64,000 nt of DNA from an uncultured bacterium (lineage in GTDB: Bacteria > Hydrothermota > UBA3072). The stretch lies in the NCBI GenBank assembly GCA_964523975.1, contig CAZGBM010000001.1, positions 6,116 to 70,115 on the forward strand. The letters run 5' to 3'. Position numbers and translations under genes: made by a program. The notes under the pieces were generated by a model. That model did no database searches. It was given only the letters and a program-made list of their open reading frames with translations, and was not told where the DNA came from. Positions 19,266 through 51,541 of the stretch are shown here, one piece after another (position 1 is the first letter of the stretch; the number at the start of each line of letters is the position of its first letter).

Positions 19266-19338
19266 ATTTTGCATTTTTATTTGTCATTTTGCTTTTTGAT
19301 ATTTGATTTTTACTTTTAAGCGGCTTTGCCGCTTATCT
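19266..19338. repeat. Solo arm of the IVS-like family plus GC hairpin aagcggctttgccgctt
   Basis: tttgtcattttgctttttgatatttgatttttac then a 7-bp stem/3-nt loop hairpin whose 3' end overlaps the TAA stop of the 782-aa gene. Confidence 0.55.
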
Positions 19339-21681: not shown

Positions 21682-21691
21682 TTTGATGCTC

Positions 21692-29373: not shown

Positions 29374-30027
29374 ATGTTAGATAATGGTTCTATACATAAT
29401 CGTCAAGCAGAACATTACGATGAAAAAATTAAAGGAGATGTCAATGATTATCTCAGAGAAAATTACTTCGAAATCCTTGATAGAGTCGTAACTCTCGCTG
29501 ATCTTAAAAAGGGGATGCGAGTTTTAGATATCGGAGTTGGGACTGGTTTATTAACTGAAAGATTACCCAAAGGTTTATCGAACTTCGGCATCGACATTTC
29601 CGAAAAAATGTTAGAAAAAGCAAAAGAAAAGAATTTACCAATTAAGCTTCAGAAAGGTGATTTTTTAAATATTCCATTTGTCGATAATCGATTTCACAGA
29701 ATAATCAGCACTTTTGCCTTTCATCACTTATCTTCTAAAGAGAAAGAAAAAGCTTTCACTAAAATGGATTGTGCCTTACTTAAAAACGGAATTATTGTCA
29801 TCGGTGACTTTATGTTTAAAGATGAAAATCAAAAGAATGAAGTCATCAATAAATTTAAGAAGGAAAACAGAAAAGACATGCTGCTTGAAGTAGAAGATGA
29901 ATATTTCATGGATATAAGTAGTGTAGAAAAGGTCTTACGCAATCTAAATTACAATGTCATCTATGAAAGAGCTTCGGTACTTACCTGGATACTAAAAGCA
30001 AAAAAAGTAGTTGACAGTCCACCTTAA
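29374..30027 (+). CDS. Class I SAM-dependent methyltransferase
   Basis: 217 aa; motif I VLDIGVGTGLLTERL. Confidence 0.65.
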   Translation: MLDNGSIHNRQAEHYDEKIKGDVNDYLRENYFEILDRVVTLADLKKGMRVLDIGVGTGLLTERLPKGLSNFGIDISEKMLEKAKEKNLPIKLQKGDFLNIPFVDNRFHRIISTFAFHHLSSKEKEKAFTKMDCALLKNGIIVIGDFMFKDENQKNEVINKFKKENRKDMLLEVEDEYFMDISSVEKVLRNLNYNVIYERASVLTWILKAKKVVDSPP

Positions 30028-30069
30028 AAACTTGACAAACTGATTTACTCAGCCTAAAATCTAATAAAT

Positions 30070-30687
30070 ATGAAAACCGAAGATTCATATAATAAAAAAT
30101 ACTCAGGAAAAGATTATTACTGGGGTAAGAATCCTTCCTCTATAGCTATAAAGCTTACAGAATTAATTTCAAAAATAAATTATAACGGCAGTAAACTAAT
30201 AGACCTTGGATGCGGTGAAGGCAGAGATGCTGTTTTCTTCGCAAAGAAAGATTTTGAAGTACTTGCAATAGATATATCTGAAAAAGGGCTCGAAAAAACA
30301 AAAATGTATGCCAAAGAAGAAGGATTGAAGATTAAAACTTTAAAAAATAATATCATTGATTATTTATTAGAAGAAAAATATGATATTATTTTTTCAACTG
30401 GAGTTCTACATTATTTGCCTCCAGAGCAAAGAACTGAAAAATTTGAGAACTATAAAGAATTTACAAACGCCGGTGGAATCAACGCCTTTTCTGTTTTTGT
30501 AAAAAAGCCATTTATCAAAAAGGCACCTGACGCCGACCCGAAAGCATATTCCTTTAAATCCGGAGAAATAATGACATACTATTGGGACTGGGAAATACTA
30601 TACTGCGTGGAAGAAATATTTGATTGTAATTCCAGTAATATTCCACACAGACATGCAGTAAATCGAATCATAGCAAGAAAACCATAA
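30070..30687 (+). CDS. SAM-dependent methyltransferase, TehB-like
   Basis: 205 aa; LIDLGCGEGRDAVFFAKK motif I. Confidence 0.65.
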   Translation: MKTEDSYNKKYSGKDYYWGKNPSSIAIKLTELISKINYNGSKLIDLGCGEGRDAVFFAKKDFEVLAIDISEKGLEKTKMYAKEEGLKIKTLKNNIIDYLLEEKYDIIFSTGVLHYLPPEQRTEKFENYKEFTNAGGINAFSVFVKKPFIKKAPDADPKAYSFKSGEIMTYYWDWEILYCVEEIFDCNSSNIPHRHAVNRIIARKP

Positions 30688-30690
30688 ATC

Positions 30691-31473
30691 ATGAAGAAAG
30701 TCGACTATTCTCAGATTTTCTCAAAGTATGAACTTGATCCATTACGTCAAAAAATAATAGGAAATACTCTTATTAAAACACTCAAGAAAAATCATTCACA
30801 AAAAAATACTTTTAGAATAATAGATATCGGATGTGGAAGCGGAAGTTGGTTAAAAGTGAATTTCAATAATTTAGTTAATTACAAAAATATAAAATGGTTT
30901 GGGATTGATAAATCTAAAGAAATGCTTTCATTAGCAATAAATAAAATCTCCAATATAAATTGGATTCAAGCTTCAGCTAACGCATTGCCACTACCTTCTG
31001 ATTATTTCAATTTCGCAATAACAGAGTTTACCTACCATCATTTTGAAAATAAAGAAGTTTCTTTCAAAGAAATGTATAGGGTAATAAAAAAAAAGAGCAC
31101 CCTAGTAATCCGAAATATAGAACCCTGGAAGATGCAGGACTGGAGTCTATATCATTTTTTCCCGGGAGCAAGAAATTCCGATTTAGAGAGATTTTTGAAG
31201 CCGAAAATTCTAAAAGCCATCCTGAGTAATATAGGCTTTACGAAAATAGAGATACATTTCCAAATTATACATGGAAATTTATATGAAACAGTCGATGAAT
31301 GGTTCAAAATAATTAAAAATAGAACGCATTCCCAACTTAGGATTATAAGCGATGAAGAATATCAAAACGGAATCAAAAGAATCTCGGAACTATTTCTAAA
31401 TAAAAAGGAAGAATTAGAAGAAATTCTTTCTAATGATATTTCAGCCATAATTGAAGTAAACGCTATAAAATAA
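30691..31473 (+). CDS. Class I SAM-dependent methyltransferase
   Basis: 260 aa; IIDIGCGSGSW motif I. Confidence 0.65.
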   Translation: MKKVDYSQIFSKYELDPLRQKIIGNTLIKTLKKNHSQKNTFRIIDIGCGSGSWLKVNFNNLVNYKNIKWFGIDKSKEMLSLAINKISNINWIQASANALPLPSDYFNFAITEFTYHHFENKEVSFKEMYRVIKKKSTLVIRNIEPWKMQDWSLYHFFPGARNSDLERFLKPKILKAILSNIGFTKIEIHFQIIHGNLYETVDEWFKIIKNRTHSQLRIISDEEYQNGIKRISELFLNKKEELEEILSNDISAIIEVNAIK

Positions 31474-31757: not shown

Positions 31758-32165
31758 TTATTCAATAACCTGTATAACCATTTTCCTCGAACGTGGGCCG
31801 TCAAATTCACAAAAAAAGATTCCCTGCCATCTGCCAAGGTCAATATCTCCGCCCGTAACCGGAATAAAATCCGAACTACCTATAATAGAAGCTTTAATAT
31901 GACTATCTGCATTTCCTTCCGAATGTGAATATTCTGCTCCGGGAGGAACAATGTCCGACAATTTACTTAAGATATCATTTTTCACCGATGGGTCGTAATT
32001 TTCATTTATTGTAACCGCGGCAGTTGTATGCGGCACATATAAGTGGACATAACCATCCTCTACCCCACTCTCTCTAACAACTTTTCTCACTTTCTCAGTC
32101 ACATCTACAAACTCGTTTCTTCTGTTTGTCGAAACGGAAATTTCCGCTCTCTTTTTTATTCCCAT
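31758..32165 (-). CDS. YjbQ/UPF0047 family protein (secondary thiamine-phosphate synthase-like)
   Basis: 135 aa; HTTAAVTINENYDPSV and GRWQGIFFCEFDG motifs match the YjbQ family. Confidence 0.8.
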   Translation of the reverse strand: MGIKKRAEISVSTNRRNEFVDVTEKVRKVVRESGVEDGYVHLYVPHTTAAVTINENYDPSVKNDILSKLSDIVPPGAEYSHSEGNADSHIKASIIGSSDFIPVTGGDIDLGRWQGIFFCEFDGPRSRKMVIQVIE

Positions 32166-32252: not shown

Positions 32253-32281
32253 TTGACATACAATCAAATTAAAATTATATT
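32253..32281 (+). promoter_or_regulatory. Sigma70-type promoter TTGACA-17-TATATT for the giant C25 peptidase gene
   Basis: ccTTGACAtacaatcaaattaaaatTATATTtt; AAGGAG RBS at 32330-32335. Confidence 0.45.
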
Positions 32282-32340: not shown

Positions 32341-35300
32341 ATGAAAATTTTATGTAAGAAAGAGGTGATATTTCTTTTCTTTTTCGCATTAATTGCCTCA
32401 GCCGGCGTCATACAAAAAGAATTAACTTTTGATAAAAACGACATTTCTTTTGCCAAAATTGACAAGTACGACTTTATAAGATTAAAAGGATGCGAGTCGA
32501 CTGTAGAGACAGGGGCTCCTTCTCTTCCGAGAGCATCTTTTTCTCTTTTAATTCCTCAGGGTGCGGAGGTTATAGATGTTGAGGTTATTTCCGTCGATAA
32601 AGAAGTAATTAGCGGAGAATATGATATTTATCCAACTCAACATCCTCAGCCTTTCATAAAAGGTAAAGTCTTCCCATTTGTTGAACCTGACAAGAATATT
32701 TACACTCAGGCTACCCCATATCCCGAAAAAATTATCGAGTCTTCTCACACCGGCTCAATGAGCGGCTATAGACTTGCAAGTTTACTGATTTATCCAATAC
32801 AATATATACCTAAAGATAAGCAGTTGATTTTCTATTCGAGAATAAAGTTCAGGGTTACATACAAAGAGAACGTACGTTCGTTGAATACGAAAACAGAGAA
32901 ACAAAAAATGATATTTGAAGAAAGAGTCAAAAAATTAGTCCTCAATCCCGAAGATATCGGAATGTCCGAGCCTTCCGTCGGACTTAGCGGAAGTCTGGCA
33001 TTACTTTCGGATACGGTGGAATATGTGATAGTAACCACATCTTCGCTCAAAGAACCTTTCCAGGAACTTGCGGACTGGAAAACGAAGAAAGGGATTCCTG
33101 CGAGGGTTGTAACTCTTGATTCCATCTATGCGAATTATTCAGGTGTAGATAATGCCGAAAAGGTAAGGAATTTCATAATCGATGCTAATTCATCCTGGGG
33201 AACAATCTGGGTTCTTCTCGGCGGGCAATGCGACTATGAATGGGGACAGGAAATCGTTCCGAGAAGGAATGTCTGGTATGTAACCTCAGGTGGTGGAAAT
33301 TATAACGATGAAGATACCATTCCATCGGACCTTTATTTCTCCGACCTTGACGGGAACTGGAATGCGGACGGAGATGGTGTATTTGGTGAATCAACCGACG
33401 ACGTTGACTTCTATTCGGACGTGTTCGTGGGAAGAGCTCCTGTTCGAACTTTAGCTCAGGCAGAAATTTTTGTTAATAAGGTTCTCACTTACGAAAAAAA
33501 TCCTCCCAGTGGTTATCAAAAAAAGATACTTCTGCCTGCAGCCTATCTATGGCCATTTATATACGATGAGAGGACCTCACAGGAGGCAATTTCCAATATA
33601 GTTCCTTCGGACTGGCAGGTTACAAAGATGTACGAGCGGGACGGAAATTTAATCCACTCGACTTTTGTTGATTCGGTTCGCGCGGGATTCGGGTTCGCTC
33701 ATCTCATAGGACACGGCAACGAGTATGGTGTTTATACTTATTACGCCGATGCTTATATTAATTCCGATGACATGGATGCTCTTGGTAATGGCGATTTGCT
33801 TGGTATTCATAACTCTATAGCCTGTATGTCCGGCGGGCTTGACCTTGTGCCTGACGGAGACTGCTTTGCAGAACATTATCTGACTCCAAGTACAGGCGGA
33901 AGTTTCTCCATTATGAATTCAAGGTATGGCTGGGGACAACCCCCAAATATGGGACCTTCGGAGCATATCGACACCTGTTTCTACCATGAAATATTCAGAG
34001 AAAATTATCTTTATCATGACCATATTGGTGTAGCACACGCCTTTTCGAAAGACGGCTACGTACCTCAAGTTACCTGGTCATCTCTCTGGCCGTGGTGCAT
34101 TTATGAGTTAAATCTATTCGGAGACCCGGAAATGCCTTTATGGACGGATACTCCTGCTAAATTAACCGTAACTCATGACTTCGTAATACCCGTTGGCGGC
34201 AGCAGCTTTGCTGTGAATGTTACAGATGGTGGCTCAGGTGTAGAAGACGCGCTTGTTTGTTTATATAAAGAGGGAGAAGTATATGAAAGAGGATACACCG
34301 ATGCTTCAGGTAATCTTACCTTAACTCTATCTCCGCCTCCCGCTTCTCTCGGTTTAATGTGCTGTACGGTTACAAAAAGCAATTACCTTCCCTACGAAGA
34401 TAGTGTGGATGTTATTTCTCCTTTTGGTCCCTGGGTTATTTTTGATAGTTATTCAGTATTGGACATATCCGGAAATAATGATGGCAATGTTGACCCAGGA
34501 GAGAATATTAAGTTGTGGCTGATAGTACATAATGTAGGTCTTGATACTGCTTATAGTATCACGGGTATTTTGCGAACGACTGATTCTTATGTCATCATTG
34601 CTGACTCAATGGAAGGATTCGGAGATATCCCGCCCGATTCATTCTTGAGCAGCTTAGAGGACTTTGACTTTGATGTGGCACTGGAATGTCCGGCAAACCA
34701 TGTTATTACTTTTGAGCTCGTTGTTAGAGATATAAACGATAGTACCTGGGTTAGTTGTTTTTCTGTGCCTATATCAACGCCAGATATAACCGTTTCTGCC
34801 GACACCATAATTTTCGATACAGTATTTGTAGATTATTCTGATACATTGGAACTTCTGGTAAATAATATTGGTAGAGATACCTTAGTTATAAGTGATATTA
34901 CATCTGACAATATCGATTATTCCATTGATATTACTGGCTTTAATTTACCCCCAAATGAAAGTCAACCAGTAAGGGTGATATTTGCTCCGGCTTCTGAAGG
35001 TAGCTCCACTGGTAATCTGACTGTTGCGAGTAACGATTTAGATGAACCCAGCTTAACAGTCTTCTTACGGGGAGAAGGTTTAGAGCCGCCTGATATATCT
35101 TTTTCACCCGATTCCGTGAGTGATAGTTTATTTGCAGGTGAAACGACTACCCATACTTTAACGATTTATAACACGGGAGAAAGTGAACTTAATTTTGATA
35201 TATCGATTATGGAATTACTATCAACAACAAAAGCACCAAATATAAGTTTTAAAGTCACCGAATTCAAAAGCAATAAAATAGCAATACCTGACGAGAATTC

Positions 35301-38300
35301 GGGAACGGTAAATGAGTTTGGAGCGAAATTTTCCAAGCGGATTTACAAGAGTAGCGCGCCTACTTTAGCTTTAGAAAATATACTTGTTATGGAAAATGGT
35401 CCGGGTTCATATCATTATAATACAGCTCTGGATAATCTTGGACTATCAAGGACACTTGTAACTTACTGGGACGAATTGCATATGGAACTCAACAGTGGAA
35501 CCCAGTGGGAGCTGGTTATTGTTAATTCCTATAGCAATATACCTTCGAACGAAATACTTGATTTGCTCAATGATTATCAAGCAGAAGGTGGACTTTTAAT
35601 ATATGCCGATTGGGCTCTTTACAACTATTCTTCGCACTCTTTACTTACAAGTTTAGGTATCGGTTTCGTTTCGGATTTTACAACGCCTTTAAACTTCTAT
35701 GCCGTCAATACCGGGCATGTACTTTTTAATAATCCGAATGATATAGACAGTCTATACTGGACAGATAACCAGTATAACAGAGATGCTGAGATTGTTGACG
35801 TTCTTCCTGGTGCGACTCAACTGGCTTATCTCGAAGGTTATCCTGACAATGGAGCAATAGTGCTTAATGCGAGAAAGAACTGTCTGTTCAATGCTTTTCA
35901 GTCAATGAACTTTAACGTAGATGATGATGGCGATGAAAAACTCGACATTGTTGAACTTATAGAGAATGAGATTAGGTTCCTTTCGATGCGCTGGCTTTCG
36001 GTTGATCCATTCTCTGGCACCATTCCATCAGCCGATAGTGTACTTGTAGAAATTACATTTGACGCTACCAACCTTTATGGAGGGAACTACTTTGCAGATA
36101 TTATCATTACCAGTAATGACCCGGATGAGCCGAGAGTTAGGGTTCCTGCTCATTTGCATGTAACTGGGGTGCCTGATATTTCTGTTTCGGAAGACACCTT
36201 AAATTACGGTATTGTTTTCACTGGTTATTCTGCAACTGACACATTAATTATTGAAAATGTCGGGACCGATTCACTGAGTGTTAATGACATCTCGTCTGAT
36301 AATCCTGATTTTACTGTAGATGTAACTAATTTTACCTTGGACCCCGGAAAAACGCATGGTATTGTGGTAACCTTTACGCCCGGCTCACTGGGAATGGTTA
36401 CGGGAACCTTGACCATCGATTGCGATGATCCGGATGAGCCAACTATAGATATTGCCTTACAGGGGGAATGTTTAGAACCACCGGACATATCGGTTTCGCC
36501 TGATTCTTTGAGAGATAGTCTGTTTACGGGCGAGACTTCAACCCATACTTTAACTATTTATAATACTGGCTTAAGTGAACTGATTTTTGATATTTTGATT
36601 GAAGGAGAGGGCGAGGCGGAACCTCTGGTATCTCTGAATACAAGAATGTCTATAGAGGACAAGAAGATAAATACTACGGGACCTCAAAAAAGTATAAGCG
36701 GTGAAACTGCTGCCGTAAATCAGTCAAATAGTCCTGTTCAATTATACAAATCTTCAAAAACAAGGGGAACGCAGGATATCGCGATACTTGGACCGGATGG
36801 CTCCGACAGTAATTTATATCTTGATGATATAGCTCGGTATTTGATAAACTCGGGGCAATTTTCTTCAGTAACAACTATAAATGGATACCTGGTTACCCCT
36901 ACCTTAGCTGAACTGAAAACATTTGATGCAGTAGGTGCCTTTGGTTGGTATGGCTGGAATGACGCAGTTGCTGTTGGTGATATACTGGCGGATTATGTTG
37001 ATGCAGGAGGTAATCTTTTTATTGCCTTTGCAGCAAATGGAACCGGAGGCGATTGGATGATTGAAGGTCGGTTTGATACTGAAAATTATTGGTTGATTTC
37101 TCCATATTCTTATAATGGAGGAACTTCCTATCATATGGGTAACGTTTATGAACCAGATCATCCCATTATGGATGGGGTAAGTACGTTAATTTCAAGATCA
37201 AAATTGAACAGCGGAACTTCTGTTAGTCCCGGCACAACTTTACTGGCGGAGTTCCTAGATGGAACACCGCTTGCCGCTATTAATAAAGTAGGATATAGCC
37301 GACGTGTTGATATAAGTTTTCCGTTTTTCACCTCCGCTGTAAGTAATTGGGGAATAGATACGACCTCGGACACAAAACTGTTGATAATCAATGCACTTGA
37401 TTGGGTTATGGGTTCTGACTGGCTTTCCGAAAATCCCACCACAGACACTGTTCCCCCAGGTGATAGCGTAAAGATAGAAATAACTTTTGACGCAACTGGC
37501 CTATACGGTGGTGATTATTTTTCAAACATCATTATTGCCAGTAACGACCCGGACGAGCCGGGAGTTGTTGTTCCCGCTCACTTACATGTAACAGGAGTGC
37601 CCGATATAGATGTTTCAGAAGATACTTTAGATTACGGTATTGTTTTCGCTGGTTCTTCTGTTACCGATACGTTAATCATTTCAAATAAAGGAACCGATAC
37701 GCTAACAATAAGTAATATTGCAACTGATTACTATAATTTTATTATTGATACTACAAATTTTACCTTAAATCCCAAAGAATCTCAGAAAGTTCTGATAACA
37801 TTTACACCAATCTCACTGGGAACGATTATAAGAGTCTTAAGGATTTATTGCGATGACCCGGATGAATCAACTGTAACATTATTTCTGCGAGGGGAATGCT
37901 TAGAACCACCGGATATATCGGTTTCGCCTAATTCTTTGAATGATACTCTATCCGAAGGTGAAATATCCAGACATATTTTGGCGATTTATAATACAGGTGC
38001 AAGTGATTTGAATTTTAACATTACGATTGAGAAATCGGATTCATCTGGGGTAAAATCGGCAAAAAATAGCAAACAGCCTATAGCCTTATCTTCCTCTGTT
38101 ATTCGTGAGTCTTCTATATTAAGCCTCGAAGAGACGGCCGAACATACACCTTTTGATTTCCACAGTACTCCTCGTCAATTTGCTCCACCAATGATATTTA
38201 GAGATAATTTTGAAGATGGCAATTATGACGGCTGGCTTAGCGGAGAAGGCTCAGGTACAAAGGAAGTTACGAATTCTACAGCCGCTAATGGAACAGTATA

Positions 38301-39237
38301 TAGTTACCATGAGTACAATTCTCCGGACGGATACCATTTCAGCGGAATTTATCGCCAACTTGGCGCTGTACAACCTGGTTATATTAGTTTTTATATCCGT
38401 TCCGGGTCTACTACTACACATGATGCCTATTTTGTACTACAAAATAGCACTGGTTATGACGCAATCTGGTTTTTCGCAAAAGGAGGCGGATATCTTTATG
38501 TCAATTCAAATGTTGGTGGAGACGAAACGTATGCATATACCGCCGAAACATGGTATCATATCGAGTTTAAAAATATTGATTTCATTACAAAAACTTTTGA
38601 CTACTATGTCAATGAAAACATGGTAAAGGCAAGTATTCCCTTCCGAGATGCTCAGTATATTGAAGACTTTGACCATCTGGATATTTACAATTTTAGCGGT
38701 GGTTCGCAGGCTTGGTGGGATGAGATTTTAATTTTGACAGGAGAGTTCCCTACCTGGGTCGTGGTTGATACCCTTTCGGGTACAATTTCATCAGGTGACA
38801 GTGTTAATATAGAGGTTACTTTTGATGCGACAGGTTTAGACATCGGCTATTATTTCGCAGAAATCATTATTGAAAGTAACGATCCGGATAATCTCCAAGT
38901 AATTGTTCCAGCTCATTTGCATGTACTTGGCAGCGGGATAGAAGAAAGGGCGATTCCGAAAGTCTTCTCTATTTCTCAAAACTATCCTAACCCATTCAAT
39001 CGCCAAACAACGATAATGTACGGATGCCCGAAAAGTTCCAAAGTTGAGATTCGAATTTTCGACATTACGGGAAGGTTGGTAGCAACTCTTGTGAATAGAG
39101 AAGTCGAAGCCGGATATCACGAAGTAATCTGGAACGGATGCACCGATTCCGGCAATAAAGTTGTAGGTGGTATATATTTCTATAAAATGAAGACAAGTGA
39201 CTTTATGGCAACTAAGAAGATGATTCTTTTACGGTAA
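32341..39237 (+). CDS. Giant (2298 aa) secreted gingipain-like C25 cysteine peptidase with ThuA-like, choice-of-anchor-D/ASH-like and LamG-like domains and a T9SS C-terminal sorting domain
   Basis: Signal peptide; C25 propeptide; catalytic His (GHGNEYG) and Cys (NSIACMSGG) about 37 aa apart. Two flavodoxin/ThuA-like segments. At least four repeats ending ...DPDEP..VPAHLHVTG and three CLEPPDISVSPDSL...IYNTG repeats. Concanavalin-like region. C-terminus NYPNPFN...IFDITGRLV...GIYFYKM matches the Por/T9SS CTD. Confidence 0.8.
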   Translation: MKILCKKEVIFLFFFALIASAGVIQKELTFDKNDISFAKIDKYDFIRLKGCESTVETGAPSLPRASFSLLIPQGAEVIDVEVISVDKEVISGEYDIYPTQHPQPFIKGKVFPFVEPDKNIYTQATPYPEKIIESSHTGSMSGYRLASLLIYPIQYIPKDKQLIFYSRIKFRVTYKENVRSLNTKTEKQKMIFEERVKKLVLNPEDIGMSEPSVGLSGSLALLSDTVEYVIVTTSSLKEPFQELADWKTKKGIPARVVTLDSIYANYSGVDNAEKVRNFIIDANSSWGTIWVLLGGQCDYEWGQEIVPRRNVWYVTSGGGNYNDEDTIPSDLYFSDLDGNWNADGDGVFGESTDDVDFYSDVFVGRAPVRTLAQAEIFVNKVLTYEKNPPSGYQKKILLPAAYLWPFIYDERTSQEAISNIVPSDWQVTKMYERDGNLIHSTFVDSVRAGFGFAHLIGHGNEYGVYTYYADAYINSDDMDALGNGDLLGIHNSIACMSGGLDLVPDGDCFAEHYLTPSTGGSFSIMNSRYGWGQPPNMGPSEHIDTCFYHEIFRENYLYHDHIGVAHAFSKDGYVPQVTWSSLWPWCIYELNLFGDPEMPLWTDTPAKLTVTHDFVIPVGGSSFAVNVTDGGSGVEDALVCLYKEGEVYERGYTDASGNLTLTLSPPPASLGLMCCTVTKSNYLPYEDSVDVISPFGPWVIFDSYSVLDISGNNDGNVDPGENIKLWLIVHNVGLDTAYSITGILRTTDSYVIIADSMEGFGDIPPDSFLSSLEDFDFDVALECPANHVITFELVVRDINDSTWVSCFSVPISTPDITVSADTIIFDTVFVDYSDTLELLVNNIGRDTLVISDITSDNIDYSIDITGFNLPPNESQPVRVIFAPASEGSSTGNLTVASNDLDEPSLTVFLRGEGLEPPDISFSPDSVSDSLFAGETTTHTLTIYNTGESELNFDISIMELLSTTKAPNISFKVTEFKSNKIAIPDENSGTVNEFGAKFSKRIYKSSAPTLALENILVMENGPGSYHYNTALDNLGLSRTLVTYWDELHMELNSGTQWELVIVNSYSNIPSNEILDLLNDYQAEGGLLIYADWALYNYSSHSLLTSLGIGFVSDFTTPLNFYAVNTGHVLFNNPNDIDSLYWTDNQYNRDAEIVDVLPGATQLAYLEGYPDNGAIVLNARKNCLFNAFQSMNFNVDDDGDEKLDIVELIENEIRFLSMRWLSVDPFSGTIPSADSVLVEITFDATNLYGGNYFADIIITSNDPDEPRVRVPAHLHVTGVPDISVSEDTLNYGIVFTGYSATDTLIIENVGTDSLSVNDISSDNPDFTVDVTNFTLDPGKTHGIVVTFTPGSLGMVTGTLTIDCDDPDEPTIDIALQGECLEPPDISVSPDSLRDSLFTGETSTHTLTIYNTGLSELIFDILIEGEGEAEPLVSLNTRMSIEDKKINTTGPQKSISGETAAVNQSNSPVQLYKSSKTRGTQDIAILGPDGSDSNLYLDDIARYLINSGQFSSVTTINGYLVTPTLAELKTFDAVGAFGWYGWNDAVAVGDILADYVDAGGNLFIAFAANGTGGDWMIEGRFDTENYWLISPYSYNGGTSYHMGNVYEPDHPIMDGVSTLISRSKLNSGTSVSPGTTLLAEFLDGTPLAAINKVGYSRRVDISFPFFTSAVSNWGIDTTSDTKLLIINALDWVMGSDWLSENPTTDTVPPGDSVKIEITFDATGLYGGDYFSNIIIASNDPDEPGVVVPAHLHVTGVPDIDVSEDTLDYGIVFAGSSVTDTLIISNKGTDTLTISNIATDYYNFIIDTTNFTLNPKESQKVLITFTPISLGTIIRVLRIYCDDPDESTVTLFLRGECLEPPDISVSPNSLNDTLSEGEISRHILAIYNTGASDLNFNITIEKSDSSGVKSAKNSKQPIALSSSVIRESSILSLEETAEHTPFDFHSTPRQFAPPMIFRDNFEDGNYDGWLSGEGSGTKEVTNSTAANGTVYSYHEYNSPDGYHFSGIYRQLGAVQPGYISFYIRSGSTTTHDAYFVLQNSTGYDAIWFFAKGGGYLYVNSNVGGDETYAYTAETWYHIEFKNIDFITKTFDYYVNENMVKASIPFRDAQYIEDFDHLDIYNFSGGSQAWWDEILILTGEFPTWVVVDTLSGTISSGDSVNIEVTFDATGLDIGYYFAEIIIESNDPDNLQVIVPAHLHVLGSGIEERAIPKVFSISQNYPNPFNRQTTIMYGCPKSSKVEIRIFDITGRLVATLVNREVEAGYHEVIWNGCTDSGNKVVGGIYFYKMKTSDFMATKKMILLR

Positions 39238-39253
39238 GCAGGAAAAAATTACA

Positions 39254-39949
39254 TCATTTTCTACCTACAGGCATTATATATAAAGGAACCTCTTCCTTCA
39301 AATCCAGGAGTTCTTTAACCTTATCATCCCAGAAAGCGCCCACCACAACGGTCCCTAAACCTAAAGCTTCTGCCTGCAGGTAAACATTTTGAGCTGCATG
39401 CCCGGCTTCCATATATGTATATCTGATACCTCTTTCTCCATATTTTTTTGTTATTCTATCGTAAACTCCTGAAATTACTATATCTACAGCACCATTTTTA
39501 ACGCAAGATTGATCGAGCGCAGCAAACGAAAGAGCTGATCTAAAGTCACCATTCTTCATTTTAACAATTTCATGGCTAAAAGGAAGATACCTGTATATCC
39601 CTTCTTGGAGCGAAAACACTTTCCCTACAACAGCAAAGATTTCAAGAGGATAAAGTGCACCGGCAGAAGGAACTGTTCTAAAATTTCTTTCTTTGTCTGT
39701 GATTCCCTGCACCGACCACAAAAGTTGTGAAAGCTCGCTTAAATCGATCGGTTTATTGAGATAATTTCTGATTGACCTTCTATTTAATATGGCTTCTTCA
39801 ACCGAAACCTGACTTTTATATCTAGGCTCTGGTAGTTTTATTGTATTTTTCTTTCCGGGCATTGTTTCACCTCCTGAGATTCTTAAAAAAGTTACAAAAA
39901 AAGACGAAAAAGCGGCTAATATAACTATGATTTTCACAAATTTTTTCAT
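39254..39949 (-). CDS. SagB-type (nitroreductase-fold) dehydrogenase with N-terminal signal/TM segment
   Basis: 231 aa; RRSIRNY...LSQLLWSVQGIT...TVPSAGALYPLEIF signature of the SagB-type dehydrogenase domain; hydrophobic N-terminus MKKFVKIIVILAAFSSFFV. Confidence 0.7.
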   Translation of the reverse strand: MKKFVKIIVILAAFSSFFVTFLRISGGETMPGKKNTIKLPEPRYKSQVSVEEAILNRRSIRNYLNKPIDLSELSQLLWSVQGITDKERNFRTVPSAGALYPLEIFAVVGKVFSLQEGIYRYLPFSHEIVKMKNGDFRSALSFAALDQSCVKNGAVDIVISGVYDRITKKYGERGIRYTYMEAGHAAQNVYLQAEALGLGTVVVGAFWDDKVKELLDLKEEVPLYIMPVGRK

Positions 39950-40966: not shown

Positions 40967-41965
40967 ATGAAAATTTTATTAGCAGATGATGATAAGAAAA
41001 TATTAAGTTCACTTTCAAATATTCTTTCTCTCCAGGGACACCATTGCAAAACCACTTCAGATGGTTACGAAGCAGTTACTGAGTATAAAAAAAACATCTA
41101 TGATTGTATACTTCTTGATATTGAGATGCCTATAATGAACGGTATAGAAGCAGCAAAAACGCTGATTAGCATAAATCCTGATGTATCAATAATAATGGTT
41201 ACGGCATTCAAAGACATTGACATAATAAGAAGTACCATGCGAGTAGGCGTATTTGACTATCTTGTAAAACCCGTTTTCCCCGAAGAAATTGTAAGAGTCC
41301 TCGAAAAAGTAAAAGAAAGAAATTTTCTCCTGCAAATAAAAAAAGATTATCAAATAGAGTTGGAAAAAAAGATTAAGGAACAACGCGAAAAAATTGAAAG
41401 GAAAATGTTAGATACCATTACCTCTCTGGTCAATGCTCTCGAAACAAAAGATCCCTATCAGGAAGGGCACTCAAAACAGGTTAAAGAAATTGCTCTAAAA
41501 ATTGCAGATAAGCTTGGCTATTCCAAAAAAGAAAAAGAAATGCTTGGATACGCATCTTTGATTCATGATATAGGTAAAGTCGGCATACCCGATTCTATAT
41601 TAATGAAACCTAATACTCTAACAGAAAAGGAATATGACATAATGAAAAAACACCCGGAAATAGGTAACTTCATAATTAATCCAGCTATCGGAAATAAAAA
41701 AATACTAAACGCCGTCCTTCATCATCATGAAAGATTTGACGGTGAAGGTTTTCCGGAAAGACTAAAAGGGAAAAATATTCCCCAATCAGCAAGGATACTT
41801 GCTATTGCAGATTCTTTAAGTGCAATGTTATCAAAAAGACCCTACCGAAAAGGACTCGAAAAAAAACACATTATAAAAGAACTAATAACTAATTCCGGAA
41901 CTCAATTTGATCCGGAATTAGTTGAAATAAGTCTAAACCTTATAAGAGAAAATAAAATCAAGTAA
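40967..41965 (+). CDS. Response regulator with receiver and HD-GYP domains (RpfG-like c-di-GMP phosphodiesterase)
   Basis: 332 aa; receiver domain with phospho-acceptor Asp (LLDIEMP); HD motif IHDIGKVGIPDSIL; HHERFDGEGFPERLKG. Confidence 0.8.
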   Translation: MKILLADDDKKILSSLSNILSLQGHHCKTTSDGYEAVTEYKKNIYDCILLDIEMPIMNGIEAAKTLISINPDVSIIMVTAFKDIDIIRSTMRVGVFDYLVKPVFPEEIVRVLEKVKERNFLLQIKKDYQIELEKKIKEQREKIERKMLDTITSLVNALETKDPYQEGHSKQVKEIALKIADKLGYSKKEKEMLGYASLIHDIGKVGIPDSILMKPNTLTEKEYDIMKKHPEIGNFIINPAIGNKKILNAVLHHHERFDGEGFPERLKGKNIPQSARILAIADSLSAMLSKRPYRKGLEKKHIIKELITNSGTQFDPELVEISLNLIRENKIK

Positions 41966-43859: not shown

Positions 43860-46667
43860 TCAAGGGTTGAAATCGGCGGTAACACCCATTCTTATGTTAT
43901 AATATGTTTCTCCTGAACTAAGCTCATGAATTTTTCCGTTTATCACGAGATGAACTTTCTCGGTAAAATCGAGGGTAATGGAAGAATTCAAATCGTAAAA
44001 AAATCCTGGTGGATAAAGATCGTTCATCCTATAAGAATTAACGTTCCCATCAGCATAATAATTATAGCCTAGGGTGACCTGAATCAGGCCGTTTTTTTTA
44101 TCCCCGGAAATCATGTATCCTAAACCTATAATTGGGGAAAAAAGAGTATCTTCTCCTGTTGTAAAGAGACCTTCTAGTTTAAATTCGATGCCCTTCTCAT
44201 TCCAGAAACTTATAAATCCACCAAATTTATCTTCTTCCGAGCTCCACTCCCTTGTTAATCCCAGTTCCTTATAGCCACTTGAGCTGTTTTCCCATCCAAA
44301 ATCAATCTTTTTGTAATCGCGGTCAGGAAAACTCAAAAAGGCTTCTCCGTTATTGGATTTAAAATTTCCTTTAAAAAAGACTTTATTTTTGCTTTCCTTA
44401 GGAAACTTAACACCTATTAAACCATCGTTTGTAGACGCCAGTCCCGGATTATACGTCGAATTAAAGTATCCGTTGAGTATAATTGCCAGCTCGCTACGAA
44501 CAGAAATGCTTGCCGAGTATTCTTTCGAGTCTCTTTCCTCTCCTGTATATATAATTCTTTGAACATAATCTCCGTATGGATTTTCATAATAAGTATTGGA
44601 AGTTGAATCAAACGAGTAATTCCCCTCTCCGGGATTTACATTTTGATAATATTTTTCCCAGATGCTTGCCTTCTTTCTGGAAACATTAAACTGACTCCTT
44701 AAATGGAAATCATTTAAATTAAAATTCGTATTTAGAGTACCATTAGTAATTACTTTCATTTCCCCGGAACTCAAATGTTTCCTGTAAATTTGTGATGCAA
44801 TTAGCGATATTCCTCTGTATTTAAAATCGGTTTTTGCGGAATAAACTTTAGCTGTGTCTATCTGGTTTCTGCCTTCCAAGCCGTATGCCAGAGCAAGATA
44901 TGAACTGCTCAAAGAGATTTCCTTTTTATAATCATCTTCTCTCTGAAAATTCCTATAAAAAACTTCATAATTATTTAATTTAAATCCTCCTTTCAAATCT
45001 TTTCGGTAGTCCTTTATGTCTTCCCAATAGAAATAAAAAGGTAGGAAACTGAGATTTATTTTATCTTTACGAATAGAATCGGCTTTCCCATAAGTATAAG
45101 AACATTTAATCCTTGAATTCGGAATGAGCTTCACTCCGCATTCCAAAAAATCAGAAGGGAAAACAGCCAGTTCCCAGGTTTTCAATAAATCCTTTTCTCC
45201 TTCCCATTCTCTCGTAACAAAATCAGCTGTCTTTTTAGAATAATTAATAGAAAAACTTAAAAATCGATAGGGATTATAGTCGGTATCAATTTTTGCATTT
45301 AAACCATCCTTTTCTAATCCTCCGACAGGCATTCTAATTCTTCTGGCTTTAATATCACTCGATACAGCAATTTTTTCTGATTTCTTATTTAACCCAAACG
45401 AAAGAAGGTTATCCTCTTCTCCAAGAGGGACTTTCCTTTTAACGGAATATGGGCCGTCACCTGTCCATAAAAAATAATGCAAAGAATCTACATATAAATA
45501 TTCGCCATTTCCCTCTCCCACCCAATCAAAATACACTTCATATGAACCATTTTTATAACCTTCATAAACAAAAATAGAATCTTGCAGTTCGTAATCGCCA
45601 TTGCCTTCTCCGACATCCACAGCCGAATAACGATACCCGAAACCGGAATCAGGATAGGACTCTATTAATTCTTTCTCCGAGAAGTCTTCTTTCCTTGTAA
45701 AAGAAAGAGAATAATCTCTATTTTCAAAACCGGTTTTATAGAAAACATTACTTTCCCCATAAATGCTATATTGAAAAAGCACGAGAACCACTGATTCGTT
45801 ATCAAGGAAAACAGAAGGATTAAACGTAAGAGAATTTTCCGAGTAATTTATTACGTAATCTTTTTCTTTTCCGTTTTGCAATAGTCTTCCGTCGAGCCAA
45901 ACCTGTTCGGATCCTCTTACTATTGAAATGCCGCTTATGTTTTCTTCGGAACTGATTTTGTAAGGACCCTGTTTATTCTCGACGGTTTTAAAAGTGTTTT
46001 TTCCGTATTTAGCCTTGGAAATCCCCGCGACTCCGGATATATTTCTCCAGTTAGAAGATACTCCAAGTAATCTTTTATCTACATCTTCATCAACAGTCAC
46101 AATGTCACCGATTCTAAAAGACATATTATCGGAAATTGCTTCGATAAATATTTCGTCTATTTCGCGCAAGTTCTGAGAAACCGCCCCTTTAGGAATATTT
46201 TCATCGGAAAGGATTCCGGAAACATCAAACTGCCCGGCCCTCCCCCCTATTTTCATCCACAAACTCTGGCTTATGTCTGTTCCGCTTGATTTTACATCCA
46301 CAAACAATCCTTTGTTTCCATTTATAATAAGCTGATTTTTATCTTGAGGTTTTAAGTCCTCTATAATCTCCGCATTGGAAGGTTTTATTGTATCGGATAT
46401 CCATCTTAAGTAAGTTTCATTCAAAACAACATCCAGATGTGAAAATTTAAATTTTATCGATAATGAACATTTCTCTTTAATTTTCAATTTACCGTCTCTA
46501 TAATTTATTATATAAGCCGAATCTCTTATCAGCAGTTTCTCTCCACACCACAAACTGTCAGAGCCTTTAATAACAAAGGAATAACCAAGGTTAATCACCG
46601 ATGTATCCGGCGAATCAATTATTAATATTTCAGATGATATGGAAAACAATAATAATATCAAATACAA
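43860..46667 (-). CDS. Large secreted, probably outer-membrane protein, function unknown
   Basis: 935 aa; hydrophobic N-terminus, Tyr/Gly/Asn-rich alternating beta-strand-like pattern in the C-terminal half. Confidence 0.5.
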   Translation of the reverse strand: MYLILLLFSISSEILIIDSPDTSVINLGYSFVIKGSDSLWCGEKLLIRDSAYIINYRDGKLKIKEKCSLSIKFKFSHLDVVLNETYLRWISDTIKPSNAEIIEDLKPQDKNQLIINGNKGLFVDVKSSGTDISQSLWMKIGGRAGQFDVSGILSDENIPKGAVSQNLREIDEIFIEAISDNMSFRIGDIVTVDEDVDKRLLGVSSNWRNISGVAGISKAKYGKNTFKTVENKQGPYKISSEENISGISIVRGSEQVWLDGRLLQNGKEKDYVINYSENSLTFNPSVFLDNESVVLVLFQYSIYGESNVFYKTGFENRDYSLSFTRKEDFSEKELIESYPDSGFGYRYSAVDVGEGNGDYELQDSIFVYEGYKNGSYEVYFDWVGEGNGEYLYVDSLHYFLWTGDGPYSVKRKVPLGEEDNLLSFGLNKKSEKIAVSSDIKARRIRMPVGGLEKDGLNAKIDTDYNPYRFLSFSINYSKKTADFVTREWEGEKDLLKTWELAVFPSDFLECGVKLIPNSRIKCSYTYGKADSIRKDKINLSFLPFYFYWEDIKDYRKDLKGGFKLNNYEVFYRNFQREDDYKKEISLSSSYLALAYGLEGRNQIDTAKVYSAKTDFKYRGISLIASQIYRKHLSSGEMKVITNGTLNTNFNLNDFHLRSQFNVSRKKASIWEKYYQNVNPGEGNYSFDSTSNTYYENPYGDYVQRIIYTGEERDSKEYSASISVRSELAIILNGYFNSTYNPGLASTNDGLIGVKFPKESKNKVFFKGNFKSNNGEAFLSFPDRDYKKIDFGWENSSSGYKELGLTREWSSEEDKFGGFISFWNEKGIEFKLEGLFTTGEDTLFSPIIGLGYMISGDKKNGLIQVTLGYNYYADGNVNSYRMNDLYPPGFFYDLNSSITLDFTEKVHLVINGKIHELSSGETYYNIRMGVTADFNP

Positions 46668-51064: not shown

Positions 51065-51541
51065 ATGAACATGCGAATTGGTTTTGGATATGATTTGCAC
51101 CGATTGGTAGAAAATCGGAAACTTATAATAGGAGGAGTCGAAATAAAAAGCCCTCTTGGGCTTCTCGGACATTCAGACGGAGATGTGCTCATACATACTG
51201 TTATTGACTCCCTTCTTGGCGCTTTCGCTCTAAATGATATAGGAACACATTTCCCTGATACCGATGATTCTTATAAAGATATTTCGAGTTTACACTTGTT
51301 GAAAGAAACCATGAAGATAATTCCAGGTAAGGTTATCAATATAGATGCAACGATAGTTGCAGAATACCCAAAAATGGCTCCTTATATTTCTTCTATGAGA
51401 AAAAATATTTCGGAAGCTACCGGTATGGATGTTTCATCCGTTTCCATTAAAGCAAAAACTAACGAAGGTCTTGGATACGTCGGAAGAAAAGAAGCCATTG
51501 CCTGTTATTGCGTTTCTCTATGCAAGGAGGTAAGTAAATGA
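51065..51541 (+). CDS. ispF: 2-C-methyl-D-erythritol 2,4-cyclodiphosphate synthase
   Basis: 158 aa; GFGYDLHRL...GHSDGDVLIHTVIDSLLGA motifs; the second Met (51071) may be the true start. Confidence 0.9.
   Translation: MNMRIGFGYDLHRLVENRKLIIGGVEIKSPLGLLGHSDGDVLIHTVIDSLLGAFALNDIGTHFPDTDDSYKDISSLHLLKETMKIIPGKVINIDATIVAEYPKMAPYISSMRKNISEATGMDVSSVSIKAKTNEGLGYVGRKEAIACYCVSLCKEVSK

What the first reader, a model, noticed from the sequence alone, without database searches (positions are those of the whole stretch)
32341..39237. 2298-aa T9SS cargo combining a gingipain-type C25 peptidase with ThuA-like, ASH/choice-of-anchor-D-like and LamG-like domains
The N-terminus has a C25 propeptide and a catalytic domain with His (GHGNEYG) and Cys (NSIACMSGG) about 37 residues apart, as in gingipains. 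Two flavodoxin-like/ThuA-like segments follow, around residues 1000-1120 and 1490-1600. There are at least four beta-sandwich repeats ending in the nearly identical block DPDEP..VPAHLHVTG(V)PDI. Three repeats start CLEPPDISVSPDSL...IYNTG. A concanavalin/LamG-like module comes next, then a canonical T9SS C-terminal sorting domain (NYPNPFN...IFDITGRLV...GIYFYKM). The protein has its own strong TTGACA-17-TATATT promoter. Putative glutamine-amidotransferase-like folds inside a secreted cysteine peptidase are an unusual combination, and the internal repeats are conserved at the DNA level.
Basis: partly seen in the sequence, partly recalled or inferred. Interest (0 to 1): 0.6.

Follow-up and report, generated by a model that had tools for sequence, protein, structure and literature searches.

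The report
Modular secreted cysteine protease, WOR-3 bacterium
This is an intact gene for a very large secreted gingipain-type cysteine protease from an uncultured WOR-3 bacterium; its tail is a chain of Ig-like domains, three of which each carry a whole extra globular domain inserted into one loop, so it is a known kind of protein with an unusual nested build.

Summary
Window 32341-39237 (+) is one intact 2298-aa ORF. Curated models confirm a C25 propeptide, a C25 catalytic domain, the C25 Ig-like domain, choice-of-anchor-D/HYDIN-type Ig domains and a type A T9SS sorting domain. His458 and Cys495 align with the catalytic His and Cys of Kgp and are conserved in 119 and 118 of 120 homologs.

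The two "ThuA-like" segments have no Pfam hit of their own. X2 is homologous to paralog modules that pass the ThuA threshold. X1 is homologous to X2 (hhalign 97.7%). A confident AlphaFold model of X1 (pLDDT 90.7) matches class I glutamine-amidotransferase domains. Neither module has the catalytic Cys. X1 defines a Pfam-less family with a conserved EF-hand-like loop.

The "LamG-like" module is only weakly CBM4/9/22-like.

The "CLEPPDIS…IYNTG" and "WLS…VPAHLHV" blocks are the two halves of one Ig domain split by an inserted domain, three times over. Paralogs carry different inserts at the same position.

The host is WOR-3. T9SS core genes could not be checked.

Most likely role: a surface or secreted protease whose nested modules bind substrate. 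This is a new variant of a known kind, of moderate interest.

The parts
32253..32281 (+). Sigma-70-like promoter match TTGACA-17-TATATT, about 60 nt upstream of the ATG
   Evidence: 11 of 12 consensus positions. This is a consensus match only. The upstream gene is divergent (31758-32165, -) and the downstream gene is convergent (39254-39949, -), so the gene is a stand-alone transcription unit.
32341..39237 (+). Complete ORF, 2298 aa plus stop codon
   Evidence: A 100% identical protein (P0001) and full-length orthologs at 65-76% identity exist in metagenomes.
32341..32403 (+). Predicted Sec signal peptide (aa 1-21, MKILCKKEVIFLFFFALIASA|G)
   Evidence: Read directly from the sequence: a basic N-region, a hydrophobic core and an A-S-A site. 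No predictor was run.
32473..32961 (+). C25 (gingipain-type) propeptide, aa 45-207
   Evidence: Pfam PF08126, 54.6 bits against a cut-off of 22. It also matches the Kgp prodomain 5mun.
33022..34140 (+). Peptidase C25 catalytic domain, aa 228-600; catalytic His458 (33712-33714) and Cys495 (33823-33825)
   Evidence: PF01364, 196.9 bits over the full-length profile. The HMMER alignment to Kgp 4rbm puts H458 on the His of AHGSE and C495 on the second Cys of GNCC, 33 residues after that His. H is conserved in 119 of 120 homologs and C in 118 of 120.
34153..34407 (+). C25 C-terminal Ig-like domain, aa 605-689
   Evidence: PF03785, 31.2 bits against 25. It aligns to the Kgp Ig-like domain.
34420..34779 (+). 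Conserved Pfam-less domain, aa 694-813
   Evidence: No Pfam hit. phmmer finds it in 106 of the 120 homologs, sometimes in two copies.
34780..35076 (+). Intact choice-of-anchor-D / HYDIN-type Ig domain 1, aa 814-912
   Evidence: PF22544 and NF012200; repeat map.
35077..35214 (+). N-half of split Ig domain A, aa 913-958
   Evidence: Alone it matches PF22544 profile positions 2-39 (19.6 bits, below the cut-off). Joined to its C-half it gives one match over profile 3-95 of 100 at 46.2 bits. AF2 strands have pLDDT around 90.
35215..35985 (+). Insert X1, aa 959-1215: a short beta-strand lead-in followed by a class I glutamine-amidotransferase-like alpha/beta domain; EF-hand-like loop D1194-E1205 at 35920-35955
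   Evidence: No Pfam hit. AF2 on a 41-sequence alignment gives pLDDT 90.7 and pTM 0.83. Foldseek matches GMP synthase and CPS GATase domains with probability 1.00. hhalign against the X2 family gives 97.7%, E 1.8e-12. The family has 376 representatives. The loop is conserved and no elbow Cys is present.
35986..36168 (+). C-half of split Ig domain A, aa 1216-1276 (WLSVDP...SNDPDEP..VPAHLHVTG)
   Evidence: Alone it matches PF22544 profile positions 49-95 (23.3 bits). AF2.
36169..36468 (+). Intact choice-of-anchor-D Ig domain, aa 1277-1376
   Evidence: PF22544, 61.6 bits over the full profile; NF012200.
36469..36606 (+). N-half of split Ig domain B, aa 1377-1422
   Evidence: The concatenated halves give one PF22544 match at 43.4 bits.
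36607..37413 (+). Insert X2, aa 1423-1691: a linker followed by a ThuA-related GATase1-like domain (about aa 1478-1691)
   Evidence: No direct Pfam hit. It is homologous (E 1e-37 to 1e-73) to P0013 2422-2638 and P0014 2342-2559, which overlap ThuA hits above the gathering score (36.1 and 40.5 against 33.4).
37414..37596 (+). C-half of split Ig domain B, aa 1692-1752
37597..37896 (+). Intact choice-of-anchor-D Ig domain, aa 1753-1852
37897..38034 (+). N-half of split Ig domain C, aa 1853-1898
   Evidence: The concatenated halves give one PF22544 match at 38.3 bits.
38035..38748 (+). Insert L, aa 1899-2136: a linker followed by a module with weak similarity to carbohydrate-binding (jelly-roll) domains (about aa 1946-2136)
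   Evidence: CBM_4_9 at 17.8 bits against 25.9, sub-threshold in 7 of 16 family members. Laminin_G_3 hits 1 of 16. The family profile hits the CBM22 tandem of Xyn10C (4xup) at E 6e-4. There is no similarity to true LamG_3 inserts. No structure was modelled.
38749..38931 (+). C-half of split Ig domain C, aa 2137-2197
38983..39234 (+). T9SS type A C-terminal sorting domain, aa 2215-2298
   Evidence: TIGR04183, 34.7 bits against 23. PF18962, 30.4 bits against 27.

Best explanation
The gene encodes a modular extracellular cysteine endopeptidase of MEROPS family C25 (gingipain type) from an uncultured candidate-division WOR-3 bacterium. The likely sequence of events is as follows. A Sec signal peptide takes the protein to the periplasm. 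The type A C-terminal domain directs it through a type IX secretion system. The N-terminal prodomain keeps the protease latent until it is removed. The His458/Cys495 dyad then cleaves protein substrates outside the cell. The C-terminal 1500 residues are not a simple string of domains. They consist of three copies of a super-module, each made of one intact HYDIN/choice-of-anchor-D Ig domain followed by one Ig domain of a second subtype. In each copy, the loop after the N-terminal ~45 residues of that second Ig domain carries a complete inserted globular domain. Two inserts (X1 and X2) have the class I glutamine-amidotransferase/ThuA-like fold but lack the nucleophile Cys. X1 also has a conserved EF-hand-like DxDxDGxxDxxE loop, which suggests Ca2+ binding. 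The third insert is a lectin/CBM-like module. The inserts most likely act as substrate- or surface-binding modules held on an Ig stalk, playing the role that haemagglutinin/adhesin domains play in Kgp and RgpA. Close paralogs keep the same scaffold but carry different inserts in the same loop. Shown here: domain identities, the conserved dyad, the nested architecture, the X1 fold and the variation of inserts among paralogs. Inferred: secretion route, zymogen activation, Ca2+ binding, and a binding rather than catalytic role for the inserts.
For: Domain calls above curated cut-offs. The dyad aligns to Kgp His and Cys and is conserved in 119 and 118 of 120 homologs. Split Ig: removing each insert in silico restores a single near-full-length PF22544 match (46.2, 43.4 and 38.3 bits), whereas the halves alone match profile 2-39 and 49-95 below threshold. 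AF2 of aa 913-1276 gives pLDDT 90.7 and pTM 0.83, with both halves as confident strands. Foldseek aligns the single PapD-like domain 6fvi across 365 columns that span the insert. X1 fold: GMP synthase (5tw7_F) and CPS small subunit (1a9x_B, 1jdb_F) GATase domains match with probability 1.00, and there is a weak GH42 trimerisation-domain hit. X1 and X2 are homologous: hhalign 97.7%, E 1.8e-12, 194 columns. X2 links to ThuA through P0013 and P0014. No Cys at the elbow, with W in 153 of 202 copies; EF-hand-like loop about 85-95% conserved over 209 copies. Insert variation: paralogs carry X1, X2, DUF4350, L, genuine Laminin_G_3 (92.4 bits) and several Pfam-less inserts in the same loop, and P0029 has uninterrupted copies of this Ig subtype. 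The nested Ig-X1 unit occurs in 52 of 180 complete X1 domains, in sequences down to about 27% identity. Host: UvrC is 64-77% identical to WOR-3 MAG proteins.
Confidence: 0.75

Rival explanations
1. The glutamine-amidotransferase-like inserts are enzymes, for example ThuA-type sugar-modifying or amidohydrolase activities that use a non-Cys nucleophile. The protein would then be a multi-enzyme and not a protease carrying binding modules.
For: The X1 family has strongly conserved positions: W1091, the acidic loop and N1209. Paralog modules pass the ThuA model, and that family is linked to sugar catabolism. X1 also occurs as small stand-alone secreted proteins.
Against: No column at the nucleophile elbow carries Cys in more than 6 of 209 copies. 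The same loop position carries lectin-type modules (Laminin_G_3, CBM-like) in paralogs, which fits interchangeable binding modules. Other non-catalytic GATase1-like domains are known, such as the GH42 trimerisation domain, which gave a weak hit.
Confidence: 0.15
2. The protein is a PorU-like T9SS sortase or signal peptidase component and not a degradative protease.
For: NCBIfam T9SS_sortase PorU gives a partial match of 93.9 bits at aa 170-395. PorU is also a C25-type protein with a CTD.
Against: The score is far below the cut-off of 420 and covers only model positions 307-530 of 1095. A gingipain-type propeptide is present. Several divergent paralogs with variable inserts occur per genome, with three in one MAG and a tandem pair in L003. 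That pattern suits cargo and not a single-copy machine part.
Confidence: 0.05
3. The protein is mainly a non-proteolytic surface adhesin or cell-envelope protein in which the C25 domain is vestigial.
For: Two thirds of the protein is Ig and binding-type modules. The nested Ig-X1 unit occurs mostly in giant non-C25 secreted proteins, and only 2 of 149 X1 representatives carry C25.
Against: His458 and Cys495 are conserved in 119 and 118 of 120 homologs. The full-length C25 profile, the propeptide and the Ig-like domain are all retained.
Confidence: 0.05

Closest known systems
Gingipains Kgp and RgpA of Porphyromonas gingivalis (MEROPS C25)
   Same: The overall layout is the same: signal peptide, inhibitory prodomain, C25 catalytic domain with a His/Cys dyad, Ig-like domain, a long C-terminal non-catalytic region and a T9SS CTD.
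   Different: Similarity is remote (E 3e-7 to Kgp). The Kgp S1 segment around Asp516 is not aligned. The non-catalytic region here consists of choice-of-anchor-D Ig domains with nested GATase1-like and CBM-like inserts, not haemagglutinin or cleaved-adhesin domains. The host is WOR-3, not Bacteroidota.
The roughly 1260-1370-aa 'C25 family cysteine peptidase' or 'T9SS type A sorting domain-containing' proteins of WOR-3, Stahlbacteria and Edwardsbacteria MAGs
   Same: They share the N-terminal ~800 aa (propeptide, C25, C25_C and the aa 694-813 domain) at 37-54% identity, and a CTD.
   Different: The Pfam lists on record for the examples with a source name show no HYDIN/choice-of-anchor-D Ig array. 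The target and its about 28 close relatives add two to five [Ig + split Ig with insert] super-modules.
ThuA (PF06283), DUF4350 (PF14258) and other non-catalytic class I glutamine-amidotransferase-like domains
   Same: X1 has the flavodoxin-like GATase1 fold. X2 is homologous to paralog modules that pass the ThuA model, and another paralog insert passes DUF4350.
   Different: X1 and X2 match no Pfam model themselves. They are extracellular, sit inside an Ig domain and lack the Cys nucleophile. X1 has an EF-hand-like acidic loop.
HYDIN/ASH/PapD-like Ig domains and bacterial choice-of-anchor D domains
   Same: All six Ig units match PF22544. Four stretches match NF012200.
   Different: Three of the six are interrupted after the first ~45 residues by a 238-269-aa insert. 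I know of no published description of this, but I did not search the literature for it.
PorU, the T9SS sortase
   Same: It has a C25-type fold and a CTD.
   Different: The score is 93.9 bits against a cut-off of 420, with partial coverage. A propeptide and adhesin-like modules are present.

Membership tests
Peptidase family C25 (gingipain family, clan CD) | Full-length match to the C25 catalytic-domain model above the curated threshold | tested here: met
   PF01364 at 196.9 bits against 23, profile 1-374 of 374, aa 228-600.
Peptidase family C25 (gingipain family, clan CD) | Catalytic His and Cys at the positions of the Kgp dyad (my recollection: His444/Cys477) | tested here: met
   H458 aligns with the His of AHGSE. 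C495 aligns with the second Cys of GNCC, 33 residues after that His in Kgp 4rbm. Conserved in 119 and 118 of 120 homologs.
Peptidase family C25 (gingipain family, clan CD) | N-terminal prodomain and the Ig-like domain after the catalytic domain | tested here: met
   PF08126 at 54.6 bits against 22. PF03785 at 31.2 bits against 25.
Peptidase family C25 (gingipain family, clan CD) | Peptidase activity and S1 specificity | not testable with these tools
   The Kgp S1 segment around Asp516 falls in an alignment gap, so specificity is unknown.
T9SS type A cargo | C-terminal type A sorting domain at the extreme C-terminus | tested here: met
   TIGR04183 at 34.7 bits against 23. PF18962 at 30.4 bits against 27. 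aa 2215-2295 of 2298.
T9SS type A cargo | N-terminal Sec signal peptide | tested here: met
   Judged by eye only: MKILCKKEVIFLFFFALIASA|G. No predictor was available.
T9SS type A cargo | T9SS core machinery (PorK/L/M/N, Sov/SprA, PorU/V) encoded in the same genome | not testable with these tools
   None lies in the 64-kb window; the best is a TPR protein at 78.7 bits against 250 for PorW/SprE. WOR-3 is not in the list of T9SS phyla in PMC11285876.
ThuA family (PF06283) | Match to the ThuA model above the gathering score | tested here: not met
   X1 and X2 give no Pfam hit even at E up to 10. Only the paralog modules P0013 2448-2558 (36.1 bits) and P0014 2366-2481 (40.5 bits) pass the 33.4 cut-off.
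Class I glutamine-amidotransferase-like superfamily (fold level) | Flavodoxin-like alpha/beta fold that superposes on GATase domains | tested here: met
   For X1: AF2 pLDDT 90.7 and Foldseek probability 1.00 to 5tw7_F, 1a9x_B and 1jdb_F. For X2 by homology only: hhalign 97.7% to X1 and E 1e-37 or better to the ThuA-positive modules.
Class I glutamine-amidotransferase-like superfamily (catalytic members) | Nucleophile Cys at the elbow after the central strand | tested here: not met
   The elbow is D1090-W1091 in X1, with W in 153 of 202 copies and Cys in at most 6 of 209 in any nearby column. X2 has AANG at the position aligned by hhalign. The elbow position was taken from the AF2 secondary structure, so this is partly inference.
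Choice-of-anchor D (NF012200) / HYDIN-VesB Ig (PF22544) | Match above the curated cut-off | tested here: met
   NF012200 at 153.6 bits against 45, four stretches. PF22544 at 209 bits, seven stretches.
Laminin G / concanavalin A-like lectin (PF13385 and relatives) | Match to a LamG model, or profile similarity to true LamG modules | tested here: not met
   No LamG hit for the query module. One of 16 family members hits at E 0.0018, below threshold. hhalign against the genuine Laminin_G_3 inserts of paralogs gives probability 0.8%.
CBM_4_9 (CBM4/9/22) carbohydrate-binding module | Match above the gathering score | tested here: inconclusive
   17.4-17.8 bits against 25.9. Sub-threshold hits in 7 of 16 family members. 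The family profile hits Xyn10C CBM22 (4xup) at E 6e-4 over only about 55 residues.

The most novel reading that the evidence does not exclude
One subtype of HYDIN/ASH-type Ig domain may act as a conserved insertion scaffold. A single loop accepts whole, unrelated globular domains: two kinds of GATase1-like module, DUF4350, Laminin_G_3, a CBM-like module and several Pfam-less folds. These inserts differ between paralogs. That would retarget a T9SS-exported C25 protease, and many other giant secreted proteins, to different substrates. X1 would then be an undescribed, probably Ca2+-dependent, extracellular binding domain family.
Probability: 0.3. Interest if true: 0.6.

Novelty: new variant of a known kind. 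Interest (0 to 1): 0.42.

Why it matters
The finding extends gingipain-type T9SS proteases into the uncultured phylum WOR-3, where no T9SS is listed in the review consulted. It gives a concrete candidate for how such organisms attack extracellular protein. The nested build (Ig domain, inserted globular domain, rest of the Ig domain) is repeated three times with different inserts and varies between paralogs. This is a clear natural example of domain insertion at one fixed position in a scaffold, and may be of use for protein-engineering scaffolds. It also flags a Pfam-less domain family, with 376 representative clusters, that has a GATase1-like fold and an EF-hand-like loop and deserves a family definition. 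None of this overturns current understanding, and no function was demonstrated.

Tried and rejected
- **Self-BLAST.** A whole-protein self-BLAST returned only the identity hit. I replaced it with a windowed BLAST.
- **Direct family and PDB searches of the inserts.** Pfam gave nothing for X1 and X2. A PDB sequence-profile search gave only a weak GH42M hit at E 0.08.
- **First AF2 run.** The run on a shallow 14-sequence ortholog alignment was poor for X1 (pLDDT 54). I redid it with 41 diverse sequences.
- **LamG reading of the third insert.** hhalign to true LamG_3 inserts gave probability 0.8%.
- **T9SS core genes.** None in the window, including the TPR lipoprotein (78.7 against 250 bits for PorW/SprE) and the putative OM barrels. 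Exact-sequence look-ups of window-end proteins, meant to extend the contig, failed. The UvrC look-up returned only a 16-kb fragment that lies inside the window.
- **Literature.** Searches for WOR-3 with T9SS found nothing. ThuA searches gave nothing mechanistic.
- **Synteny.** The window's flanking genes are not found next to homologs in nine MAG loci.
- **Rejected readings.** The PorU-sortase, pseudo-protease and misassembly or pseudogene readings were considered and rejected. The reasons are given under the rival explanations; for the last one, the ORF is intact and orthologs share the same architecture.

Full report
**1. Observation**

Window 32341-39237 (+) is a single intact ORF of 2298 codons with an ATG start. 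GHGNEYG contains His458 and NSIACMSGG contains Cys495, 37 residues apart. The three LEPPDIS…IYNTG blocks start at aa 913, 1377 and 1853. The C-terminal NYPNPFN…GIYFYKM block is also there.

The TTGACA-17-TATATT match lies at 32253-32281 and scores 11 of 12. The 800-nt region holds four promoter-like sites against 2.7 expected, so this is only a consensus match. The upstream gene is divergent and the downstream gene convergent, so the ORF is its own transcription unit. No terminator-like hairpin follows it.

The internal repeats are real at protein level (42-74% identity, E down to 1e-49). They are also real at DNA level (70-79% identity).

There is one small correction. VPAHLHV occurs three times, not four or more.

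**2. Domain identities**

Pfam and NCBIfam give the following, all above curated cut-offs:

| Domain | Residues | Score (bits) | Cut-off (bits) |
|---|---|---|---|
| Propeptide_C25 | 45-207 | 54.6 | 22 |
| Peptidase_C25 (full-length profile) | 228-600 | 196.9 | 23 |
| Peptidase_C25_C | 605-689 | 31.2 | 25 |
| HYDIN/VesB Ig (seven stretches) | several | 209 | 25.5 |
| Choice-of-anchor D (four stretches) | several | 153.6 | 45 |
| T9SS type A sorting domain, TIGR04183 | 2215-2295 | 34.7 | 23 |
| T9SS type A sorting domain, PF18962 | 2215-2295 | 30.4 | 27 |

The only solved relatives by sequence are the Kgp and RgpB catalytic domains and the Kgp prodomain, plus HYDIN Ig domains.

In the HMMER alignment to Kgp 4rbm, His458 sits on the His of AHGSE. 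Cys495 sits on the second Cys of GNCC, 33 residues after that His. By my recollection this matches the Kgp H444/C477 spacing. His is conserved in 119 and Cys in 118 of 120 homologs. The Kgp segment that includes Asp516, its S1 determinant by my recollection, falls in a gap, so specificity cannot be inferred.

The PorU model matches only partially, at 93.9 bits against a cut-off of 420.

**3. The two alpha/beta segments**

Neither X1 (about aa 1004-1215) nor X2 (about aa 1478-1691) matches any Pfam model, even at E up to 10.

X2 links to ThuA through paralogs. It is clearly homologous to a module in P0013 (2422-2638) and P0014 (2342-2559). phmmer gives E 1e-37 and jackhmmer E 1e-72. Those regions overlap Pfam ThuA hits above the gathering score (36.1 and 40.5 bits against 33.4). 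A further insert in the same proteins passes DUF4350.

X1 is a separate family:
- An exhaustive phmmer search of 1.84 billion representatives finds 376 proteins at E up to 1e-3 and 121 at E up to 1e-10.
- The hits are mostly giant secreted proteins, but they include 200-330-aa stand-alone proteins.
- Ten of those small proteins were scanned and none has a Pfam family for this domain. One carries an IPTL-CTERM tag and one a Por_Secre_tail.

Profile-profile comparison of the X1 family (209 copies) with the X2 family (37 copies) gives 97.7% probability and E 1.8e-12 over 194 columns. The two are therefore remote homologs.

**4. Structure of X1 and its host**

A first AF2 run on a shallow ortholog alignment was poor for X1, with pLDDT 54. 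A second run used 41 sequences down to 27% identity (alignment A2). It covered aa 913-1276 and gave mean pLDDT 90.7 and pTM 0.83.

X1 shows alternating beta-alpha-beta units. Foldseek against PDB returns class I glutamine-amidotransferase domains with probability 1.00. These are GMP synthase 5tw7_F (220 columns, rmsd 4.9) and the carbamoyl-phosphate synthetase small subunit (1a9x_B, 1jdb_F). The same search returns HYDIN/ASH/PapD-like Ig hits. A profile search of PDB sequences gives a weak GH42 trimerisation-domain hit at E 0.08; by my recollection that domain also has a GATase1-like fold.

The position after the central strand, where catalytic GATases have their Cys, is D1090-W1091. Across 209 family copies it is W in 153 of 202, and no nearby column has more than 6 Cys. 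X2 has AANG at the aligned position. Neither module is therefore a Cys-dependent amidotransferase.

X1 also has a strongly conserved twelve-residue acidic loop: D1194-x-D1196-x-D1198-G-K-x-D1202-x-x-E1205. The five acidic positions are conserved in about 85-95% of copies and the Gly at position 6 in about 75%. The loop follows the EF-hand pattern DxDxDGxxDxxE and leads into the C-terminal helix. Ca2+ binding is my inference from this.

**5. Nested architecture**

The block 'LEPPDIS…IYNTG…NFDI' (about 46 aa) and the block 'WLS…FDAT…SNDPD…VPAHLHV' (about 60 aa) are not separate repeats. They are the N- and C-halves of one Ig domain interrupted by a globular insert.

The evidence is:
- Each half alone matches PF22544 only partially and below threshold: profile 2-39 at 19.6 bits and profile 49-95 at 23.3 bits.
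- Joining the halves in silico gives a single match over profile 3-95 of 100 at 46.2 bits for unit A.
- Units B and C give 43.4 and 38.3 bits, all above the 25.5 cut-off.
- In the AF2 model both halves are confident strands and the whole 364-aa unit has pTM 0.83.
- Foldseek aligns the single 142-aa PapD-like domain 6fvi across 365 columns, spanning the insert.
- I could not inspect coordinates.

The tail is therefore three super-modules, each an intact Ig followed by a split Ig with an insert. The inserts are X1 (aa 959-1215), X2 (aa 1423-1691) and L (aa 1899-2136).

**6. The third insert**

The third insert (L) gives only sub-threshold hits:
- CBM_4_9 at 17.8 bits against 25.9, seen in 7 of 16 family members.
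- Sialidase-like CBM, also below threshold.
- Laminin_G_3 in 1 of 16 members.
- A family-profile hit to the tandem CBM22 of Xyn10C (4xup) at E 6e-4 over about 55 residues.

hhalign against the genuine Laminin_G_3 inserts of paralogs gives probability 0.8%. It is best called a lectin- or CBM-like module of unsettled family. 'LamG-like' is not specifically supported.

**7. Family context**

Full-length orthologs at 65-76% identity exist in at least nine metagenome contigs. About 28 close relatives share the N-terminal 900 aa and the same scaffold.

A module map shows two to five [Ig + split Ig] units per protein, with inserts of 235-310 aa. Examples of the insert order:
- P0015-P0018: L, X1, L.
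- P0009: L, X2, L.
- P0013 and P0014: X2-like, X2, DUF4350, ThuA-positive X2-like.
- Other paralogs carry genuine Laminin_G_3 (92.4 bits) and at least four Pfam-less insert types.

P0029 has uninterrupted copies of the same Ig subtype.

Among the representatives found with X1, 52 of 180 complete X1 domains are flanked by both Ig halves. Only 2 of 149 such proteins carry a C25 domain, while 33 carry a T9SS-like CTD. The nested unit is therefore a widespread extracellular module, and its fusion to C25 is particular to this lineage.

One MAG holds three paralogs. Locus L003 has two in tandem. The window's flanking genes are not conserved next to these homologs.

**8. Organism and secretion system**

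The window encodes housekeeping genes: topA, a ClpB/ClpC-type ATPase, uvrC, lolCE, lgt, rnfB, ispF and nagB. Its UvrC is 64-77% identical to proteins named 'candidate division WOR-3 bacterium'. G+C content is 32-42%.

No T9SS core component lies in the window. The best candidate is a TPR lipoprotein at 78.7 bits against 250 for PorW/SprE, which reflects generic TPR similarity.

[quoted passage not shown] My searches found no paper pairing WOR-3 with T9SS. Many WOR-3 homologs carry the same CTD. The export route is therefore a reasonable inference, but it is untested.

**9. Mechanism**

Best reading (about 0.75 for identity and layout, and lower for the role of the inserts):
- The protein is a Sec- and T9SS-exported zymogen.
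- The C25 head is freed by removal of the prodomain and degrades extracellular protein.
- The Ig array acts as a stalk.
- The nested GATase1-like and CBM-like modules bind substrate or the cell surface, much as the adhesin domains of Kgp and RgpA do.

Rivals are catalytic inserts (0.15), a PorU-like sortase (0.05) and a vestigial protease in an adhesin (0.05).

**10. Verdict**

There are three corrections: the architecture is nested and not serial, the ThuA link is indirect, and LamG is unconfirmed.

This is a new variant of a known kind (a gingipain-type T9SS cargo). Its scaffold with varying inserts is structurally interesting, and it contains an undescribed domain family. Interest is moderate.

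Noticed in passing
window 19333-24187 (-): Two tandem paralogous ORFs of 782 and 831 aa, 39% identical over about 790 aa. Each has a signal peptide and a hydrophobic/basic C-terminal tail. Neither has a Pfam or NCBIfam hit.
   Followed up: partly
window 43860-46667 (-) and 54300-55466 (+): ORFs of 935 aa and 388 aa with no family hit. Their C-termini look like outer-membrane beta-barrel ends (…GVTADFNP and …GYVFVSF). The second directly follows a 921-aa TPR lipoprotein (51538-54300) that matches YbgF/BamD repeats and matches PorW/SprE only weakly, at 78.7 bits against 250.
   Followed up: partly
window 15074-17788 (-): A 904-aa membrane protein with a strong TMEM260-like protein O-mannosyltransferase domain (PF11028, 148.6 bits). 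This is a possible protein-glycosylation enzyme in a WOR-3 genome.
   Followed up: no
window 34420-34779 (aa 694-813 of the target): A conserved ~120-aa domain between the C25 Ig-like domain and the first choice-of-anchor-D domain. It has no Pfam family, is found in 106 of 120 homologs and is sometimes present in two copies.
   Followed up: partly
window 35920-35955 (aa 1194-1205, within X1): An EF-hand-like DxDxDGxxDxxE loop is conserved across 209 copies of the Pfam-less X1 domain family. The five acidic positions are conserved in about 85-95% of copies and the Gly in about 75%. This suggests Ca2+ binding.
   Followed up: partly
L003 1352-2467 and 10098-11216; L002, L005 and L007 (one MAG, CAZALG01): C25 paralogs of this family occur in tandem on one contig, and three occur in one MAG. 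The genes flanking the window copy are not conserved at these loci.
   Followed up: partly
window 29374-31473 (+): Three consecutive SAM-dependent methyltransferase genes, one of them TehB-like, lie just upstream after a xylose-isomerase-like TIM-barrel gene.
   Followed up: no
window 40967-41965 (+) and 57048-58280 (+): Two HD_5 (HD-GYP-type) domain proteins. One is fused to a response-regulator receiver and the other to a GAF domain.
   Followed up: no
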